Positions 35,318 through 58,342 of a stretch of DNA of 64,000 bases are shown here, one piece after another (positions within the stretch are counted from its first letter, which is position 1; each line of letters begins with the position of its first letter). The translations under genes and the position numbers were made by a program. Under the pieces are notes generated by a model. The model was not told the DNA's origin and ran no database searches. It saw only the letters and a program-made list of their open reading frames with translations. Origin of the DNA: Acidobacteriota bacterium (GTDB lineage: Bacteria > Acidobacteriota > Thermoanaerobaculia > Multivoradales > Multivoraceae); contig JAPPCR010000023.1 of assembly GCA_028875725.1 (NCBI GenBank), forward strand, positions 405,620 to 469,619. Reading direction: 5' to 3'.

Positions 35318-35385
35318 GCGGGAACGTCTACGATGCAAGCGGACTCCTTCGCCAGCCAGCGCGAGCCGCAACCCACATCGACAGC

Positions 35386-36432
35386 TCAGTCCTCCATATC
35401 CGTCGGATAGGTCAGCGGAGTCGCGGGAGACCACCCTTCCCGCTGCGGCGCGTCACCCGTCGAGCTACATAGCGTGCCTTCTGTCCGAAAAACACGCCGA
35501 CCGCGGTGGATCATCGCGCGAACCACGGCCTTCTTCGGATGATCAGGGTCATTCCGATTTGCAGACACGATGGCGCGGTACTTCGGGGACTGGGCCTCCT
35601 CAGGGAGCTTAGCCCCGAGCCACTTGTCGAGCACATCCGACGACACGTTTCTCCGGGAGCCATGATGGGGTACCTGGAAGACGTTGAGCGACGTGACTGG
35701 CTTCCCAAGTTCCAGAGCCGCCTCATAGGCCTCCGTCAGCGCGCCAACGCCTGCATCCCCCGTAAGCAGGATCTTCCAATTGCACGTCTGAGCGAACTGG
35801 ACGACACTACTCTCGTTCTCAGAGCTAGTTCCTTCGGTGTCCCCTTTCAGGTTCTCTTCACCCCAAGCGGCACTCAAGAGAACCCCGTCTGTCGCTGAAA
35901 GCGTCTTAGAAGCAGGAACGGGTGTCTTCTCCGATGCGACGACCAAGTCTAAGTACGTACCGTAGGCCGGCGCCAGGACGGTGAAGACTCCGACCTCCGT
36001 TTCCTGTAACGCATCCTGGATCAGGATTCCCCTCTCGATGGCAAGCGCTTCTAGCTTTGCAACGTTTGGGAAATCACGCCGAAGCCGGCCTATGAGCCGG
36101 TCCCTATCCTGGTAGCGCTCGAACTTCGGCATCAGAGCGTCGACATGCACCCACGGGCGGTTCATCCAAAGAGTTCCGACTTGGAGTTCTTCCAAGACTG
36201 TCTCGAGACCCGCAGCATGGTCCCTGTCCGGATGCGTGAGGACAACGTGATCTACGCGATCGGCGGTGTAGTACGTGCGGATGTGGCTGACAAGCTTCTC
36301 CCCATCCGCTTCGTAGCCACCGTCCACAACGTAGACGTAGTCGACACCATTCTGCCGGTGACGCACGGCTATCGCGTCACCGCTACCCTTGTCACCAACT
36401 TCGAGGAAGTCGATCTCAAGAAAATCACTCAC
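35386..36432 (-). CDS. MBL-fold metallo-hydrolase
   Basis: HPDRDH (HxHxDH) motif plus a downstream His/Asp. Lower-GC DNA. Confidence 0.7.
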   Translation of the reverse strand: MSDFLEIDFLEVGDKGSGDAIAVRHRQNGVDYVYVVDGGYEADGEKLVSHIRTYYTADRVDHVVLTHPDRDHAAGLETVLEELQVGTLWMNRPWVHVDALMPKFERYQDRDRLIGRLRRDFPNVAKLEALAIERGILIQDALQETEVGVFTVLAPAYGTYLDLVVASEKTPVPASKTLSATDGVLLSAAWGEENLKGDTEGTSSENESSVVQFAQTCNWKILLTGDAGVGALTEAYEAALELGKPVTSLNVFQVPHHGSRRNVSSDVLDKWLGAKLPEEAQSPKYRAIVSANRNDPDHPKKAVVRAMIHRGRRVFRTEGTLCSSTGDAPQREGWSPATPLTYPTDMED

Positions 36433-36445
36433 GTCGCTGTTTCTC

Positions 36446-37105
36446 CTAGTTCCTAGCCACCCGTGCCACTTCCGACGAAGCCTTGCAGGCCAAGACTGTC
36501 TGCACTAGCCTGATCCCCGAGTTGCGCGCAGCGCTAGAGACTAGCAAGTACTGGAACAGTAGAGCCGACAGGTACCACAAGGCTGGCTGCAACCGCTCCG
36601 CCCGGAGTAGCGCCATTGGGCCACCCACGGCGAGAATCAATACTGCCGCCGAAGTCCAATCGCGAGAGAGAAGATACGTCCGGTGAATCTGCCTCACCCG
36701 ATCATCGTCCTGTAACTCGTGGTACCAGCGATACCAAAGGGCGTTCTGCGCAGAGGGGTCGGTAGGCAGGGGACTTTGGTGTTCTAGCAACGCATCGCGG
36801 TCGATTCTGGGGTCGGCACCCATGTGCTTAGTGAACGCTCGACACCCCGGCAAGGCGTGCCGCCATCTCCAGAACACCAATCTCGTCTTTGTCTCGGTGC
36901 TTACGACTTCGCTCAACACTCCGACGAGTAGCACCAACACGCTGAGCGGTAGCAAGTCAGCCCGGGCCTCACTAAGCGTCTGCCATACCTCAGCCAAACT
37001 CCTCACCTCAAAGCTCGTGTACGCCACGAGAACGTACGCCAAGACGTTACCCAGCCAAACTGTGACTAGAGCGGGCGCGTTCCTGTCTTTGAGTGTAATC
37101 GGCAC
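36446..37105 (-). CDS. hypothetical integral membrane protein
   Basis: Four or five hydrophobic helices. Lower-GC island DNA. No recognisable motif. Confidence 0.5.
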
Positions 37106-57306: not shown

Positions 57307-57753
57307 TCAGCGCCCGAACAGGTGGTCGAGTCCCCGGATGAACGCGGTAAGCAATCCGTATCCGCCAACTATCGCGGAAGGACCGACCAAGAGGTACATC
57401 GCCGAAGTGCGTTGAGCTTCGTCGCCGTAGAACAGGAAGTACAGGCAAAGCCCAACGTACGCGACACCGATCCCCAAGAGGCACGACACGAGACGCATGC
57501 CGAAGCGGCGCTTCTTCTTGCGGTCGTCGTCGTCGCGGCGGAGTTTCTCGGTGTGGAACTCGTACTGGCGTTGGTCGGAAGCATCCCTGAGGGCGATCAC
57601 CTGACTCGCAAGATCGACCCGCTGGCGCTCGTTGTCGATCCGTTGCCGCTCTAGCGAGAGGAGTTCGGGCCAAAGCTCCTGTTGTAGAGCGCCGCCGCCT
57701 TCTGAATCCTCGCGCACGACGAGGTTGGTTCGCGACTCCTCGTCTTCGCTCAT
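57307..57753 (-). CDS. hypothetical membrane protein (charged N-terminal coiled-coil, two C-terminal TM helices)
   Basis: N-terminus is charged (EDEESRTNLVVRED...RQRIDNERQRV), then a KKKRR stretch and two hydrophobic helices. ATGA overlap with the upstream small gene. Confidence 0.45.
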   Translation of the reverse strand: MSEDEESRTNLVVREDSEGGGALQQELWPELLSLERQRIDNERQRVDLASQVIALRDASDQRQYEFHTEKLRRDDDDRKKKRRFGMRLVSCLLGIGVAYVGLCLYFLFYGDEAQRTSAMYLLVGPSAIVGGYGLLTAFIRGLDHLFGR

Positions 57754-57980
57754 CGGTATGCCGCGGCCTTACGGCCACTAGCCAGTCCGGCGCCTGGTTG
57801 CAGCGGCTTCACCAGTTCATCGGCGTAGATGTCGACTGGAATGCTGTAGACGCGGTAGCCACTACCGTATGGGGACTCTTCGTGTTGGGTGATGTAGGCG
57901 TTGCCTTCGGGATCCGCCTTGCGACGGCGCTTCTCCTCAAAGACCTCCTCAAGGGTCTCGCAGTAGACATCCTTGAACAT
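57750..57980 (-). CDS. hypothetical small protein (76 aa)
   Basis: ATG at 57980 with AGGAGG SD (6-nt spacer). The longer track ORF (to 58094) has a Cys/Arg-rich N-terminus that is unlikely to be coding. Confidence 0.4.
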   Translation of the reverse strand: MFKDVYCETLEEVFEEKRRRKADPEGNAYITQHEESPYGSGYRVYSIPVDIYADELVKPLQPGAGLASGRKAAAYR

Positions 57981-58250
57981 GAGCAACCTCCTGGAGATAG
58001 TTCTTCCAACGGGGAAGAGGCACCCCGTACGACAGCCAATCAGCCATGGCAAGCAGCGGAGCATACAGTGTACAACGCGGTTCACTGTCGCCAACTTCCC
58101 ACTGTTCGGCGTAGCTTAGCCTCTTCTCCTGCTTGCACGTGCAAGCCAGTATCGACGGTGAAACGTGGGACACAAATGGGTACTCCAACGCCTGGCGATC
58201 CCACTAACCACTCTATCTTCCGTCTCTTTCGTCGTCTTCTTGGCGGAGAG

Positions 58251-58342
58251 GGAGGGATTCGAACCCTCGGTCCGAGTCACCCCGGACAACTGCTTAGCAG
58301 GCAGCCCTGTTCGACCACTCCAGCACCTCTCCCGGACGGCGG
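58251..58342 (-). tRNA. tRNA-Ser (anticodon GCU)
   Basis: Reverse complement GGAGAGGTGCTGGAGTGGTCGAACAGGGCTGCCTGCTAAGCAGTTGTCCGGGGTGACTCGGACCGAGGGTTCGAATCCCTCCCTCTCCGCCA. 7-bp acceptor stem, anticodon loop CUGCUAA, long variable arm (type II), T-loop GGTTCGAAT. Confidence 0.85.

What the first reader, a model, noticed from the sequence alone, without database searches (positions are those of the whole stretch)
35320..58342. ~23-kb lower-GC genomic island ending at tRNA-Ser(GCU), with a P4-type integrase and a possible internal att remnant
GC drops by eye from ~70% to ~55-62% beginning right after the cytochrome P460 gene (35317). It returns to ~70% at the atp operon beyond tRNA-Ser (58251..58342, minus strand, 3' end facing the island). 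Cargo is typical mobile or defence content: an MBL hydrolase, three tyrosine recombinases, HepT/MntA, the MTase/ATPase/helicase module and small unknown genes. The P4-family integrase (55152..56315) is 2 kb from the tRNA 3' end. An 11-nt exact match to the tRNA T-arm/3' region (ccctcggtccg, 40041-40051 versus 58273-58283) sits 30 nt upstream of the tandem recombinases at 40081. Its chance expectation in 64 kb is about 0.03. This could be a decayed att site of a nested or older insertion.
Basis: seen in the sequence. Interest (0 to 1): 0.6.

Follow-up and report, generated by a model that had tools for sequence, protein, structure and literature searches.

The report
Defence island with methylase-switching shufflon
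A 22.9-kb patchwork of acquired DNA beside a serine tRNA gene in a sponge-symbiont acidobacterium carries an Hma anti-phage system whose DNA-methylase gene looks to be rewired by its own pair of DNA-flipping enzymes, a switch I found no earlier description of for this defence system.

Summary
The island is real and its limits are almost exactly as reported: 35318-58240. They run from the cytochrome P460 stop codon to the 3' end of tRNA-Ser(GCU), which lies at 58241-58332, not 58251-58342. GC is 64.3% against 68-69.5% in the flanks, and GC3 is 0.67-0.82 against 0.92-0.96. In 41 related genomes (Acidobacteriota, Ca. Multivorans) the same slot holds between 45 nt and more than 9 kb of unrelated content.

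It is not one P4-type element. No tRNA-derived repeat exceeds chance. The 11-nt "att remnant" is one of five chance matches where 3.2 are expected. The integrase lies in a separate 3.1-kb terminal segment and alone among 120 homologues has Asp in place of the catalytic His. A 165-nt relic of resident genes separates that segment from the rest.

The main cargo is a 15.9-kb Hma (Type-1 BREX-related) system. Its methylase gene hmaB exists as a full copy and an inverted 3'-truncated copy. These flank two tandem tyrosine recombinases, one of them fused to MntA, followed by HepT. Exact inverted-repeat blocks bracket hypervariable cassettes. Their boundaries are conserved in seven genomes. One relative has the recombinase cassette flipped, and cassette alleles swap between the silent and the expressed copy. 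This points to a programmed-inversion shufflon. Inversion within a population remains unproven.

The parts
35318..58240 (.). Whole variable slot (island), 22,923 bp, between the cytochrome P460 stop codon and the 3' end of tRNA-Ser(GCU)
   Evidence: Homology to relatives stops at 35317-35325 and resumes at 58233-58241. GC is 0.643 against 0.68-0.695, and GC3 is 0.67-0.82 against 0.92-0.955.
35386..36432 (-). MBL-fold hydrolase, a defence-candidate family (PADLOC PDC-M48B). It lies in the lowest-GC block of the island.
   Evidence: Pfam Lactamase_B 3e-09. PADLOC PDC-M48B 3.8e-127 over the full length, with weaker hits to LmuA and Avs1a. NCBIfam gives weak Avs1a and 6A-MBL hits.
36446..37105 (-). 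219-aa ORF of unknown function, downstream of hmaB' and upstream of the MBL gene
   Evidence: No Pfam, PADLOC or NCBIfam hit. It was called as a gene on independent contigs.
37047..39878 (-). hmaB', an inverted second copy of the DUF1156 methylase gene. It starts at GTG 39878. Homology to hmaB runs to 37480 (aa 1-800). The following 143 codons (37479-37047) are an unrelated Arg/Pro/Gly-rich read-through tail, so the C-terminal ~190 aa of HmaB are missing.
   Evidence: BLASTP gives 71% identity over 817 aa. PADLOC HmaB profile positions 8-782 of 967 are matched.
37480..37640 (.). Inverted-repeat block B' (partner is 45112-45272). It holds exact runs of 50 and 77 nt, and homology ends abruptly at 37480.
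   Evidence: The same end sequence ...GGCATGGCCGTTTACACACGCTACGC is found in 11 copies from 9 genomes and in L060/L061. Logan contigs break 30 nt into it.
38371..38483 (.). Inverted-repeat block A' (partner is 44269-44381). It holds exact runs of 39 and 70 nt and ends at ...GGGGTGTATCT.
   Evidence: The 50-nt core is nearly invariant in 10 copies from 6 genomes, and the copies always diverge immediately after it. The same boundary is seen in L059 and L060.
40081..41016 (+). Rec1, a 311-aa tyrosine recombinase without an arm-binding domain. It is the first of a tandem pair.
   Evidence: Pfam Phage_integrase 1e-18 plus Phage_int_M. The R-K-HxxR-H-Y residues are complete. It is always paired with Rec2 at Hma loci.
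41016..42365 (+). Rec2-MntA, a tyrosine recombinase (aa 1-~290) joined by a ~65-aa linker to a MntA-type nucleotidyltransferase antitoxin (aa 356-449) in one ORF. An in-frame ATG lies at 42081.
   Evidence: Pfam Phage_integrase 5.5e-22 plus NTP_transf_2 1.6e-14. The ORF is also uninterrupted in L035, L047 and L057. Sixteen clusters carry the same fusion.
42362..42721 (+). HepT-like HEPN RNase toxin. Its start overlaps the Rec2-MntA stop by 4 nt.
   Evidence: Pfam HepT-like 7.5e-27. The Rx4H motif RNVLVH is present.
42853..45849 (+). hmaB, the full-length DUF1156 N6-adenine methylase (998 aa). Motif I DPFAGGG is at aa 173-179 and motif IV DPPY at aa 604-607. The variable regions are aa 331-443 and 510-606. 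The constant C-terminal part, aa 808-998, is present only here.
   Evidence: PADLOC HmaB E = 0, profile positions 8-959 of 967. Pfam DUF1156 plus MethyltransfD12. Motif positions are and the variability map.
44269..44381 (.). Inverted-repeat block A (aa 473-510 of HmaB)
45112..45272 (.). Inverted-repeat block B (aa 754-807 of HmaB)
45863..46276 (+). DUF1828 protein (137 aa) embedded between hmaB and hmaC
   Evidence: Pfam DUF1828 6.8e-15. PADLOC PDC-M24B 9e-10.
46352..49666 (-). hmaC, a DUF499 ATPase with an N-terminal Swt1-like HEPN domain
   Evidence: PADLOC HmaC E = 0, profile positions 2-940 of 941. Pfam HEPN_Swt1 2.4e-32 plus DUF499 9e-26.
49731..53306 (-). hmaA, an SNF2 helicase with a C-terminal NOV_C (PD-(D/E)XK-type) nuclease domain
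   Evidence: PADLOC HmaA E = 0 over the full length. Pfam SNF2-rel_dom, Helicase_C and NOV_C.
53521..54612 (-). 363-aa ORF of unknown function. In L011 a homologue lies directly after P460.
   Evidence: No family hit. tblastn gives 75% and blastn 80% identity to L011 13025-14166.
54932..55096 (-). Relic of a resident gene pair: the last ~50 codons of a 257-aa gene and the first ~7 codons of the PIN gene downstream of it. Both ends are cut.
   Evidence: 78-85% nt identity to L013, L017, L019, L033, L040 and L043. The intact 257-aa gene abuts tRNA-Ser in L040 at 13303-14076. The PIN partner is seen in L019.
55105..55143 (+). Conserved integrase leader, YGTGTAGTCTC-N8-9-GTGGGACRC-NANA-GGGGAC. It marks the left end of the integrase segment.
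   Evidence: The same element lies upstream of 68-71%-identical integrases in L053, L054, L055 and L056.
55152..56315 (+). P4/CP4-type tyrosine integrase (387 aa) transcribed towards the tRNA. Its HxxR box reads DGFR.
   Evidence: Pfam Arm-DNA-bind_3, Phage_int_M and Phage_integrase. PDB hits to CP4-like integrase N-terminal and central domains. 118 of 120 homologues have His at this position and the window's integrase is the only one with Asp.
56495..58094 (.). Three small ORFs of unknown function: 56495-56887 (+), 57307-57753 (-, by eye it has two hydrophobic stretches), and 57750-58094 (-).
   Evidence: ORF list. No family hits. No similarity to the cargo of related integrase elements.
58165..58183 (+). 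Second copy of the GTGGGACACNANNGGGNAC motif, 57 nt from the tRNA 3' end
   Evidence: The window has only two matches, both on the + strand, flanking the integrase segment. 0.01 are expected, but the pattern was defined post hoc.
58241..58332 (-). tRNA-Ser(GCU), the conserved right border of the slot
   Evidence: ARAGORN. The same tRNA is followed by atpC and atpD in 20 related loci.

Best explanation
The interval 35318-58240 is a composite accessory and defence island. It fills a hypervariable slot between the cytochrome P460 gene and the 3' end of tRNA-Ser(GCU) in a 'Ca. Multivorans'-like acidobacterial sponge symbiont. It was assembled by several separate events rather than by one integration.

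Reading outward from the tRNA, the parts are:
(a) a 3.1-kb decayed P4/CP4-type integrase segment (about 55100-58240);
(b) a 165-nt relic of a resident 257-aa/PIN gene pair;
(c) an orphan 363-aa gene;
(d) a self-contained 15.9-kb Hma (= Type-1 BREX-related, DUF499-centred) defence module (37466-53323);
(e) an MBL-fold defence-candidate pair (35386-37105).

Turnover of the slot is most likely driven mainly by recombination in the conserved flanks and by tRNA-directed integration of small elements (inferred).

Inside the Hma module the methylase gene works as a shufflon (inferred from anatomy and comparison). A full hmaB and an inverted 3'-truncated hmaB' flank a cassette that encodes two tyrosine recombinases and a HepT toxin. 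Recombination between the exact inverted blocks A/A' or B/B' flips the intervening 5.8 or 7.5 kb. That joins either N-terminal half (variable region 1) and either middle cassette (variable region 2) to the single constant C-terminal part. Up to four methylase variants would result, presumably with different target specificities. This would change what the HmaA helicase-nuclease and HmaC ATPase treat as self or foreign.

Rec2 is fused to the MntA antitoxin of the adjacent HepT toxin. This probably ties maintenance or regulation of the invertase cassette to a toxin-antitoxin pair (speculative).
For: HOTSPOT AND ISLAND
- 41 related loci keep MoCoBD-P460 and tRNA-Ser-atpC-atpD.
- The P460-to-tRNA distance is 45 nt in L027, about 70 nt in L044 (which lacks P460), 1.2 kb in L040, 1.8-8 kb in twelve others, and more than 9 kb in eight.
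- The contents differ: tannase and carboxylesterase with native GC3, HTH+DUF6932, PIN, AAA_21+DUF4276, Schlafen/AlbA_2 and others.
- Homology to the window ends at 35317-35325 and 58233-58241.
- There is a GC and GC3 break.

COMPOSITE NATURE
- The relic at 54932-55096 comes from genes that are intact next to the tRNA in L040 and L019.
- The integrase-family leader begins at about 55103, just where homology to the relic ends.
- Homology to the Hma module of L057 spans exactly 37466-53323, and L057 has different neighbours.
- The u363 homologue lies directly after P460 in L011.

HMA IDENTITY
- PADLOC HmaA, HmaB and HmaC each score E = 0 with near full-length coverage.
- The Pfam domains match the Type-1 BR description in PMC12839542.

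SHUFFLON
- The two copies are 71% identical and inverted.
- Exact blocks of 39+70 nt and 50+77 nt sit among 50-90% identical sequence, and homology ends abruptly at the end of block B.
- N-terminal regions that are 95% identical in protein are only 84-89% identical in DNA. Homogenisation is therefore confined to the blocks.
- The same architecture, with exact within-genome blocks at the same positions, occurs in L035, L047 and L057.
- The A and B boundaries are conserved to the nucleotide in L059, L060 and L061.
- L057 has the Rec1-Rec2-HepT cassette inverted relative to hmaC/hmaA, and colinearity ends at the edge of block A.
- Variable-region-2 alleles swap loci. The window's silent allele matches the expressed allele of L047 (86%) and the silent allele of L017. 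The window's expressed allele matches the expressed allele of L057 (91%). Other allele pairs are 30-48% identical.
- The variable regions coincide with family-wide hypervariable regions in 119 homologues (r = 0.82). They lie between motif I and motif IV, where BR methylases carry their TRD insert.
- Rec1 and Rec2 have complete catalytic residues and no arm domain.
- All 3 of 3 sampled Rec2 homologues from other genomes lie at Hma loci with a second inverted hmaB copy.
Against: - No within-population evidence of inversion. The five long assemblies that carry this locus all have the same arrangement. None of five predicted recombinant HmaB isoforms is in the 15-billion-protein collection.
- No sequence core shared by blocks A and B could be defined beyond a GTGTA pentamer. 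Homologous (RecA-type) recombination or gene conversion between the repeats is therefore not excluded.
- HmaB has not been shown to methylate DNA or to protect it. In Halomonas, HmaA alone defended against T4, and overexpressing HmaB did not alter infection (PMC11232893).
- The Hma module occupies the same slot in several species. Part of the island may therefore be old and vertically inherited rather than recently acquired.
- The Rec2-MntA fusion could be a read-through ORF with MntA also made separately. The linker is poorly conserved and an in-frame ATG precedes MntA.
Confidence: 0.75

Rival explanations
1. One reading: one ~23-kb P4-type integrative island. The integrase at 55152 would have inserted it into the 3' end of tRNA-Ser, and an older nested insertion would be marked by an att remnant at 40041.
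For: The island abuts the tRNA 3' end exactly. A P4/CP4-family integrase lies within 2 kb. The composition is foreign. Related genomes have an empty site.
Against: - No direct repeat of the tRNA end is found anywhere in the island above chance. The 11-mer is one of five chance hits where 3.2 are expected.
- It lies in the divergent promoter region between hmaB' and rec1.
- The integrase is transcribed towards the tRNA, with its conserved leader abutting a truncated resident gene at about 55100.
- Homologous integrases sit at the end of elements carrying AlpA and VapE, and none of that cargo is present here.
- A catalytic His is replaced by Asp.
- The Hma module recurs with other neighbours.
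Confidence: 0.07
2. The two hmaB copies are an old duplication that is decaying. The recombinases are ordinary mobile-element integrases that happen to sit between them. The exact blocks reflect occasional gene conversion, not programmed inversion.
For: - The copies are only 71% identical overall, about as divergent as homologues from other genomes.
- No recombinant isoform or alternative assembly was found for this strain.
- No shared core site was identified.
- Duplicated hmaB is rare on plasmids: 108 places in 104 records.
Against: - The full-gene, inverted-partial-copy and Rec1+Rec2 arrangement recurs in at least seven genomes at 60-85% identity.
- Block boundaries are conserved to the nucleotide while the block sequences are lineage-specific and exact within each genome.
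- The cassette orientation differs between genomes, with the breakpoint at block A.
- Cassette alleles sit in the silent locus in one genome and in the expressed locus in another.
- Both recombinases lack the arm domain that their integrase relatives have.
Confidence: 0.13
3. The region is ancestral to the lineage, and the differences among relatives are due only to differential deletion.
For: - The Hma shufflon module occupies the same P460/tRNA-Ser slot in the window, L035 and L047, and partly in L015, L017, L021 and L046.
- Identity there (75-85% nt) is only moderately below that of the flanks (about 89%).
Against: - GC3 of every island gene is 0.12-0.28 below that of the flanking genes.
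- The closest relatives by flank identity (L006, L008, L009 and L010, 95-97% aa) lack all island genes. They carry tannase and carboxylesterase genes of native composition instead.
- The Hma module occurs in L057 with unrelated neighbours.
- Truncated relics and an integrase segment show that insertions took place.
Confidence: 0.05

Closest known systems
tRNA-associated genomic or defence islands with P4/CP4-57-type integrases (e.g. CP4-57 at ssrA, P4 at leuX)
   Same: Foreign-composition DNA abuts the 3' end of a tRNA gene. A P4-family integrase with an arm-binding domain is present. The cargo consists of defence and toxin-antitoxin genes. The island is absent from related genomes.
   Different: - There are no flanking direct repeats.
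- The integrase is 1.9 kb from the tRNA, points towards it, and has a mutated catalytic His.
- The island is a mosaic of at least five blocks, with a relic of resident genes in the middle.
- Much of the turnover looks like replacement between conserved flanks.
Hma system (Payne et al. 2021, PMC8565338), also called Type-1 BREX-related DUF499-centred system (Rakesh & Krishnan 2026, PMC12839542)
   Same: - HmaA is an SNF2 helicase with a C-terminal nuclease.
- HmaB is a DUF1156 N6-MTase.
- HmaC is a DUF499 ATPase with an N-terminal HEPN domain.
- Extra genes are embedded between the hma genes, as reported for 63-67% of Hma loci (10.1101/2024.01.29.577857; PMC11232893).
   Different: - hmaB is convergent with hmaC/hmaA rather than colinear (compare L058).
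- hmaB is duplicated as an inverted partial copy.
- The embedded genes include two recombinases between the copies.
- None of the four Hma/BR papers read here mentions recombinase-driven inversion. 'Phage integrase' near hmaA (19.1% of loci) was interpreted there as mobility.
Programmed-inversion specificity switches of defence methylases: BREX-1 PglX (L. rhamnosus, B. casei), DISARM DrmMI, Type IIG Cj0031-like enzymes (Milman et al. 2023, PMC9881135), and Type I hsdS shufflons
   Same: A full gene and a shorter inverted partial copy are present, showing gene-pseudogene size asymmetry. Inverted repeats bracket variable segments inside the specificity region. A tyrosine recombinase gene is adjacent or in between. 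The N- or C-terminal constant part is kept.
   Different: - The target is a DUF1156 methylase of Hma, which that survey's main text does not mention.
- There are two tandem paralogous recombinases (42-44% identical) instead of one.
- In this window the silent copy keeps the 5' end and lacks the 3' end.
- One recombinase is fused to a toxin-antitoxin antitoxin.
Toxin-antitoxin modules associated with site-specific recombinase genes (Tn3-family transposons; recalled from memory, not checked here)
   Same: A type II TA pair is placed directly next to, and co-oriented with, a site-specific recombinase gene.
   Different: Here the antitoxin domain (MntA, or Phd/YefM, HTH or MazE-type in homologues) is in the same ORF as the recombinase. 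The context is an invertible defence cassette, not a transposon.

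Membership tests
tRNA-integrated P4-type genomic island | Insertion boundary at the 3' end of a tRNA gene | tested here: met
   Homology to relatives resumes at 58233-58241. The tRNA 3' end is at 58241.
tRNA-integrated P4-type genomic island | Flanking direct repeats (attL/attR) derived from the tRNA 3' end | tested here: not met
   No repeat exceeds chance. The left end at 35318-35385 has no resemblance to the tRNA.
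tRNA-integrated P4-type genomic island | Intact integrase of the P4/CP4 family adjacent to the tRNA | tested here: inconclusive
   The domain architecture is met. However, the gene is 1.9 kb away, points towards the tRNA, and has Asp at the HxxR His, where 118 of 120 homologues have His.
tRNA-integrated P4-type genomic island | Absent from related genomes (empty site) and with atypical composition | tested here: met
   Empty site in L027 and L044, and alternative contents elsewhere. GC and GC3 break.
Hma / Type-1 BREX-related system | SNF2 helicase with a C-terminal nuclease (HmaA) | tested here: met
   PADLOC HmaA E = 0, residues 1-1190 against profile 2-1172 of 1176. Pfam SNF2-rel_dom, Helicase_C and NOV_C.
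Hma / Type-1 BREX-related system | DUF1156 N6-adenine methyltransferase (HmaB) | tested here: met
   PADLOC HmaB E = 0, profile 8-959 of 967. Pfam DUF1156 2.8e-27. Motifs DPFAGGG and DPPY are present.
Hma / Type-1 BREX-related system | DUF499 ATPase (HmaC), often with an N-terminal HEPN domain | tested here: met
   PADLOC HmaC E = 0, profile 2-940 of 941. Pfam HEPN_Swt1 and DUF499.
Hma / Type-1 BREX-related system | Anti-phage activity; methylation-based discrimination of self | not testable with these tools
   Published data show only HmaA-dependent defence against T4, with no demonstrated role for HmaB (PMC11232893).
Gene-altering programmed inversion (shufflon) of a specificity gene | Full-length gene plus a shorter inverted partial copy nearby | tested here: met
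   hmaB is 998 aa. hmaB' is homologous over aa 1-800 only and lies on the opposite strand.
Gene-altering programmed inversion (shufflon) of a specificity gene | High-identity inverted repeats that bracket divergent segments | tested here: met
   Blocks A and B are exact over 39+70 and 50+77 nt, with 50-60% identity between them. The same holds in L035, L047, L057, L059, L060 and L061.
Gene-altering programmed inversion (shufflon) of a specificity gene | Site-specific recombinase encoded at the locus | tested here: met
   Rec1 and Rec2 lie between the copies and have complete catalytic residues.
Gene-altering programmed inversion (shufflon) of a specificity gene | Both orientations or variants observed | tested here: inconclusive
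   Between genomes the answer is yes: the cassette is flipped in L057 with the breakpoint at block A, and alleles swap between loci. Within the source population it was not observed: the five assemblies agree and no recombinant isoforms were found. Read-level data are not available here.
Gene-altering programmed inversion (shufflon) of a specificity gene | The variable segments encode the specificity determinant | tested here: inconclusive
   The variable regions equal the family-wide hypervariable regions (r = 0.82). They lie between motifs I and IV, where the TRD insert is described. No structural or methylome test was done.
HepT/MntA (HEPN/MNT) type VII toxin-antitoxin pair | A HEPN toxin with an Rx4-6H motif next to a MNT nucleotidyltransferase with a GSx10DxD motif | tested here: met
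   HepT-like 7.5e-27 with RNVLVH. NTP_transf_2 1.6e-14 with GSMARGDADEGSDVDL. The stop and start codons overlap by 4 nt. Unusually, the MNT is in the same ORF as Rec2.

The most novel reading that the evidence does not exclude
Hma (Type-1 BREX-related) systems carry a dedicated and widespread specificity shufflon. A conserved pair of arm-less tyrosine recombinases (Rec1/Rec2) inverts cassettes of the DUF1156 methylase at two conserved crossover sites. Many of the 'integrases' counted near Hma loci would then be invertases, not mobility genes. In addition, Rec2 is recurrently fused to antitoxin domains of unrelated TA families (MntA, Phd/YefM, HTH, MazE-type), each followed by the cognate toxin. 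This suggests a new coupling between a toxin-antitoxin pair and a site-specific recombinase. The coupling might stabilise the invertase cassette, or link switching to toxin release.
Probability: 0.45. Interest if true: 0.8.

Novelty: new variant of a known kind. Interest (0 to 1): 0.62.

Why it matters
As a tRNA-linked island the region is ordinary. It does give a clean, well-bounded example of a defence hotspot in uncultivated sponge symbionts, with an empty site and more than a dozen alternative fillings.

The more valuable result concerns Hma. The mechanism of this system and the role of its methylase are unresolved. A shufflon aimed precisely at the hypervariable part of HmaB argues that HmaB is a sequence-specific self-marking enzyme and that its specificity is under diversifying selection, as in BREX, DISARM and Type I systems. 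That makes the question directly testable by comparing the methylomes of the four predicted variants.

The result also changes how 'integrase' genes embedded in Hma loci should be read. It further brings to light a family of recombinase-antitoxin fusions whose logic is unknown.

Tried and rejected
1. Exact and approximate searches for tRNA-derived att repeats found nothing above chance.
2. The 19-nt motif GTGGGACACNANNGGGNAC flanks the integrase segment at 55125 and 58165. It is conserved upstream of homologous integrases. I kept it only as a lead, because the pattern was defined post hoc and it scored within the null range in the unbiased scan.
3. I searched for recombinant HmaB isoforms by homology search and by exact look-up of five predicted chimeras. 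None was found, while the positive control was.
4. I looked for a core sequence or dyad shared by blocks A and B. Only a GTGTA pentamer turned up, which is not convincing.
5. The cargo of homologous integrase elements (AlpA, VapE and others) was searched in the window. There were no hits.
6. A PDB sequence search with HmaB gave no hit. With the integrase, only the N-terminal and central domains matched.
7. The small island ORFs and the 257-aa relic gene have no Pfam, PADLOC or NCBIfam family.
8. A sigma-70 promoter and terminator scan of the recombinase region was uninformative.
9. The plasmid collection shows that hmaB duplicates are rare there, so it does not reveal how common the shufflon is.
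10. No supplementary files of Milman et al. 2023 are held in the library, so I could not check whether DUF1156 appears in their lists.
11. Structure prediction was not run. It was not needed for the conclusions.

Full report
1. CHECK OF THE OBSERVATION

Composition. The window is about 68-70% G+C outside the reported interval and 64.3% inside it: 35318-58240 is 0.643, the left flank 0.676 and the right flank 0.695. The 1-kb windows differ with Mann-Whitney p = 5e-6. Codon position 3 shows the break much more sharply. The flanking genes MoCoBD, P460 and atpCDGA have GC3 of 0.92-0.955, while every island gene has 0.67-0.82.

tRNA and the 11-mer. ARAGORN places tRNA-Ser(GCU) at 58241-58332 on the minus strand, with its 3' end facing the island. 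The 11-mer ccctcggtccg does occur at 40041-40051, but its tRNA copy is at 58264-58274.

Gene content. It comprises an MBL-fold protein, two tandem tyrosine recombinases, a HepT/MntA pair, a methylase/ATPase/helicase module, and a P4/CP4-type integrase that ends 1926 nt from the tRNA.

2. THE "att REMNANT" IS CHANCE

tRNA-Ser has five separate exact matches of 11 nt or more elsewhere in the window, not counting the homologous T-arm of tRNA-Gln. Block shuffles give 3.2 +/- 1.9.

A local-alignment scan of the tRNA 3' half plus 100 nt of flank against the whole island gives a best score of 12.5, inside the shuffled range of 11-13.5. The last 25 nt of the tRNA has no match within three mismatches other than tRNA-Gln. 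The left end of the island (35318-35385) does not resemble the tRNA. The 40041 site lies in the 200-nt divergent region between hmaB' (start 39878) and rec1 (start 40081).

3. COMPARATIVE GENOMICS: A HYPERVARIABLE SLOT

The organism. A scan of species-representative genomes with the flanking MoCoBD protein returned 41 loci. All are Acidobacteriota/Thermoanaerobaculia MAGs, and many are named Candidatus Multivorans or come from sponge metagenomes. MoCoBD-P460 on one side and tRNA-Ser(GCU)-atpC-atpD on the other are conserved.

Size of the slot. The distance from P460 to the tRNA 3' end is:
- 45 nt in L027 (an empty site);
- about 70 nt from MoCoBD in L044, which lacks P460;
- 1.2 kb in L040, 1.8 kb in L041, 2.5 kb in L019, 3.2 kb in L010 and L020, 4.0 kb in L009, 5.1 kb in L029, and 6.8-8 kb in L006, L007, L008, L018, L038 and L043;
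- more than 9 kb in eight further loci;
- 22.9 kb in the window.

Boundaries. Nucleotide homology between the window and these loci ends at 35317-35325 and resumes at 58233-58241.

Contents of the slot in relatives. They include tannase and carboxylesterase genes of native GC3 in the closest relatives (L006, L008, L009, L010), HTH+DUF6932 and PIN toxin-antitoxin-like pairs, AAA_21+DUF4276, a Schlafen/AlbA_2 protein, an S41 peptidase, an amidohydrolase, and Sel1 and DUF1828 proteins. None of the closest relatives carries the window's genes.

Assembly support. Four independent Logan contigs and one 1.3-Mb ENA contig confirm the P460-MBL junction.

4. THE ISLAND IS A MOSAIC

(a) Relic, 54932-55096. 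This stretch is 78-85% identical to a segment present in six relatives. It corresponds to the last ~50 codons of a 257-aa gene plus the first codons of a PIN gene downstream of it. In L040 and L019 these genes are intact and directly abut tRNA-Ser. In the window the relic is cut on both sides.

(b) Integrase segment, from about 55103 to the tRNA.
- It opens with a leader, YGTGTAGTCTC-N8-9-GTGGGACRC..GGGGAC, that is conserved upstream of 68-71%-identical integrases from other metagenomes.
- One of those integrases (L053) sits at the end of an element carrying AlpA and a VapE-type primase. None of that cargo is in the window.
- The window's integrase reads D-G-F-R where 118 of its 120 nearest homologues have H-G-F/M-R. 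It is the only one with Asp at this conserved catalytic His.
- A second copy of GTGGGACACNANNGGGNAC lies 57 nt from the tRNA. It may be an arm-type site or a terminal repeat, but the pattern was defined after the fact.
- I read 55.1-58.24 kb as a decayed small integrative element.

(c) u363, 53521-54612. Its homologue in L011 lies directly after P460.

(d) The Hma module. Homology to L057, a related genome in which the module has quite different neighbours, spans exactly 37466-53323.

(e) 35386-37105. This is the lowest-GC block (0.59). It encodes an MBL-fold protein that matches the PADLOC candidate PDC-M48B at 3.8e-127, and an unknown 219-aa protein.

5. THE MAIN CARGO IS AN Hma SYSTEM

PADLOC profiles HmaA, HmaB and HmaC each match at E = 0 over essentially their full length. 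HmaA is an SNF2 helicase with a C-terminal NOV_C nuclease domain. HmaC is a DUF499 ATPase with an N-terminal Swt1-like HEPN domain. HmaB is a DUF1156 N6-adenine methylase.

This is the system that Payne et al. 2021 named Hma (PMC8565338). Rakesh & Krishnan 2026 re-described it as the Type-1 BREX-related DUF499-centred system. [quoted passage not shown] Embedded extra genes are common in Hma loci (10.1101/2024.01.29.577857; PMC11232893).

6. hmaB IS BUILT LIKE A SHUFFLON

Two inverted copies. The full gene (42853-45849, + strand, 998 aa) has an inverted second copy, hmaB' (39878-37047, - strand). The copy is 71% identical over aa 1-800 and then runs into an unrelated Arg/Pro/Gly-rich tail.

Repeat blocks. 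Identity along the pair is mosaic. Two near-exact inverted blocks stand out:
- Block A: 38371-38483 paired with 44269-44381, with exact runs of 39 and 70 nt (aa 473-510).
- Block B: 37480-37640 paired with 45112-45272, with exact runs of 50 and 77 nt (aa 754-807). Homology ends abruptly after it.

N-terminal regions that are 95% identical in protein are only 84-89% identical in DNA and have no exact run longer than 26 nt. Sequence homogenisation is therefore confined to the blocks.

Variable regions. The most divergent stretches are aa 331-443 and aa 510-606. They coincide with the hypervariable regions of the family in an alignment of 119 homologues; smoothed conservation against paralogue identity gives r = 0.82. 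They lie between motif I (DPFAGGG, aa 173-179) and motif IV (DPPY, aa 604-607), where the TRD insert of these methylases is described.

Genes between the copies. These are rec1 (311 aa), rec2 and hepT. rec2 is a 449-aa ORF carrying the recombinase, a ~65-aa linker and a MntA nucleotidyltransferase. Rec1 and Rec2 are 42-44% identical to each other. Both have the full R-K-HxxR-H-Y set and lack the arm-binding domain present in their closest integrase-like relatives.

7. COMPARATIVE EVIDENCE THAT THE COPIES RECOMBINE

The same architecture recurs in L035 and L047 (same slot) and in L057. In each genome the blocks are exact within the genome but differ between genomes:
- L035: 104+273 nt at block A.
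- L047: 125 nt at block A, and at least 102 nt just after variable region 2. The 340 nt in between is only 39-59% identical.
- L057: 1108 nt at the N-terminus, 62 nt at block A and 191 nt at block B.

Conserved boundaries. The 50-nt A core GACGGCGGCACCGGTGCGACCGCGTATGCCGAGGCGGTAGGGGTGTATCT is nearly invariant in ten copies from six genomes, and the copies always diverge immediately after ...GTGTATCT. Block B always ends ...GGCATGGCCGTTTACACACGCTACGC. After that point the expressed locus continues into the C-terminal domain, while the silent copies continue into unrelated sequence.

Flipped cassette. In L057 the rec1-rec2-hepT cassette is inverted relative to hmaC/hmaA when compared with the window. 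The 4.2-kb colinear alignment (window 40183-44391 against L057 9254-5006, minus strand) ends at the edge of block A.

Swapped alleles.
- Variable region 2: the window's silent allele is 86% identical to the expressed allele of L047 and to the silent allele of L017. The window's expressed allele is 91% identical to the expressed allele of L057. Unrelated alleles are 30-48% identical.
- Variable region 1: the window's expressed allele matches the expressed allele of L035 (87%) and the silent allele of L057 (76%).

8. THE MODULE IS WIDESPREAD

More than 3,400 proteins match Rec2 at E < 1e-20. Among the best 120:
- 16 are fused to MntA;
- 15 are fused to a Phd/YefM antitoxin domain;
- 4 are fused to HTH_3/HTH_31;
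- 1 is fused to a MazE/AbrB-type domain;
- most of the rest are stand-alone proteins of about 300 aa.

I looked at three of them, and all three sit at Hma loci with a Rec1 partner and a second, inverted hmaB copy.
- L059: Rec2-Phd followed by a PIN toxin. The silent copy lacks the N-terminal 177 aa and keeps the C-terminus.
- L060: Rec2-HTH. The silent copy is an internal fragment (aa 257-813) lying beside the full gene, and the recombinases are outside the pair.
- L061: hmaB is broken by two IS elements. The inverted repeats have exact runs of 967 and 65 nt.

In L059 and L060 the exact runs again end at ...GGTAGGNNTGTATCT. In L060 and L061 they end at ...TACACNCGCTACG. A canonical colinear Hma operon with no recombinase or duplicate also exists (L058). 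On plasmids duplicates are rare.

9. PROPOSED MECHANISM

Shown:
- the anatomy;
- the conservation of block positions and boundaries;
- the confinement of sequence homogenisation to the blocks;
- alternative orientations and allele placements among genomes.

Inferred:
- Rec1/Rec2 may act as a XerC/D-like pair and catalyse inversion between A and A' (flipping 38484-44268) and between B and B' (flipping 37641-45111).
- Either N-terminal half and either middle cassette would then be joined to the single C-terminal HTH part at 45273-45849. This gives up to four HmaB variants.
- The variants would differ in methylation specificity and so reset the self/non-self discrimination of HmaA/HmaC. This would be a bet-hedging strategy like those of Type I hsdS, BREX PglX and DISARM DrmMI (PMC9881135).

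Speculative:
- The antitoxin fusion may stabilise the cassette, or couple the level of recombinase to toxin activity.

Not shown:
- inversion within a population;
- dependence on the recombinases;
- any methylation by HmaB.

The five long assemblies of this strain agree with one another. No predicted recombinant isoform is on record, whereas the reference protein is (MDE2692297.1).

10. KNOWN OR NEW?

tRNA-linked islands, Hma systems and methylase shufflons are each known. The four Hma/BR papers I read do not mention recombinase-mediated inversion. One of them counts Phage_integrase domains near 19.1% of hmaA genes and reads them as a sign of mobility. The main text of the systematic survey of gene-altering inversions does not mention DUF1156, DUF499 or Hma, and its supplements are not held. 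Full-text searches that combined Hma or DUF1156 with inversion or recombinase terms found nothing relevant.

I therefore rate the island itself as an ordinary new member of a known kind. I rate the Hma shufflon, with its tandem recombinases and recombinase-antitoxin fusion, as a new variant of a known kind. The caveat is that the searchable library does not cover subscription journals.

11. VERDICT

The island, its borders, the tRNA and the cargo are right. The GC values and coordinates are slightly off. The att remnant is chance.
The region is an acquired island at a tRNA hotspot, but it is not a single P4-type element.
- The most interesting content is the Hma methylase shufflon.

Noticed in passing
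window 41016-42365; homologues P0241-P0360; loci L059 10001-11284 and L060 10001-11203: Rec2-type tyrosine recombinases are recurrently fused at the C-terminus to antitoxin domains of unrelated TA families. Among the best 120 homologues the counts are MntA 16, Phd/YefM 15, HTH_3/31 4 and MazE/AbrB 1. Where I checked, the cognate toxin (HepT, PIN) lies immediately downstream. The linker is poorly conserved but stays open in frame.
   Followed up: partly
window 55105-55143 and 58165-58183; L053 178-216; L055 5957-5995: A conserved leader (GTGTAGTCTC ... GTGGGACRC ... GGGGAC) lies upstream of this integrase family. A second copy of its GTGGGACAC..GGG.AC part lies 57 nt from the tRNA. The two copies are direct repeats that flank the 3.06-kb integrase segment. 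They could be arm-type sites or element ends. GTGTA(G)TCT also resembles the end of shufflon site A (GTGTATCT), which may be coincidence.
   Followed up: partly
window 56072-56083 (integrase residues ~308-311): The integrase has Asp where 118 of 120 close homologues have the catalytic His of the HxxR box. This suggests an inactive relic.
   Followed up: yes
window 54932-55096: A 165-nt relic of a 257-aa gene and the start of a PIN gene. Both genes are intact next to tRNA-Ser in L040, L019 and L043. The relic marks at least two independent replacement events inside the island.
   Followed up: yes
window 58582-58700; also 19051-19098 and 23094-23110; many copies in L006-L046: A GC-rich dispersed intergenic repeat (...GGCGGGGACGCCGGCGCACCCAGTGTGCGGGCG...) of REP or MITE type. 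In relatives there are copies between MoCoBD and P460. By eye, a similar sequence also lies upstream of the integrase in L053 and L055.
   Followed up: partly
window 23500-28000 and 30100-30904: There is a second lower-GC patch (0.61; tetranucleotide correlation 0.92) that encodes a TonB-dependent receptor and a PepSY_TM protein. A ParE/ParD pair lies directly beside tRNA-Gln(CUG) at 30831-30904. In relatives the spacing around tRNA-Gln, MDMPI and Fer2 also varies, which suggests a second variable slot.
   Followed up: no
L002, L003, L005 (Logan contigs); window 37509: Three independent short-read assemblies all end at window position 37509, exactly 30 nt into the 77-nt exact repeat of block B. 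A k=31 assembly graph would break there. This is a practical warning that such shufflons fragment metagenome assemblies.
   Followed up: yes
L006, L008, L009, L010, L020, L038 (slot between P460 and tRNA-Ser): The closest relatives carry tannase/feruloyl-esterase and carboxylesterase genes with native GC3 (0.88-0.92) in the slot. These genes are absent from the window. This implies replacement or loss, not only insertion.
   Followed up: partly
L061 11044-17838: In an 8.2-Mb genome the expressed hmaB of an Hma shufflon is interrupted by two DDE transposase (IS) genes, and rec1 is split in two. This is an example of a decaying shufflon.
   Followed up: no
L048-L050: Tandem Rec1/Rec2-like pairs that retain an N-terminal arm-type domain occur with no Hma genes on the short contigs that carry them. 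This suggests the shufflon invertases derive from a two-integrase mobile element.
   Followed up: no
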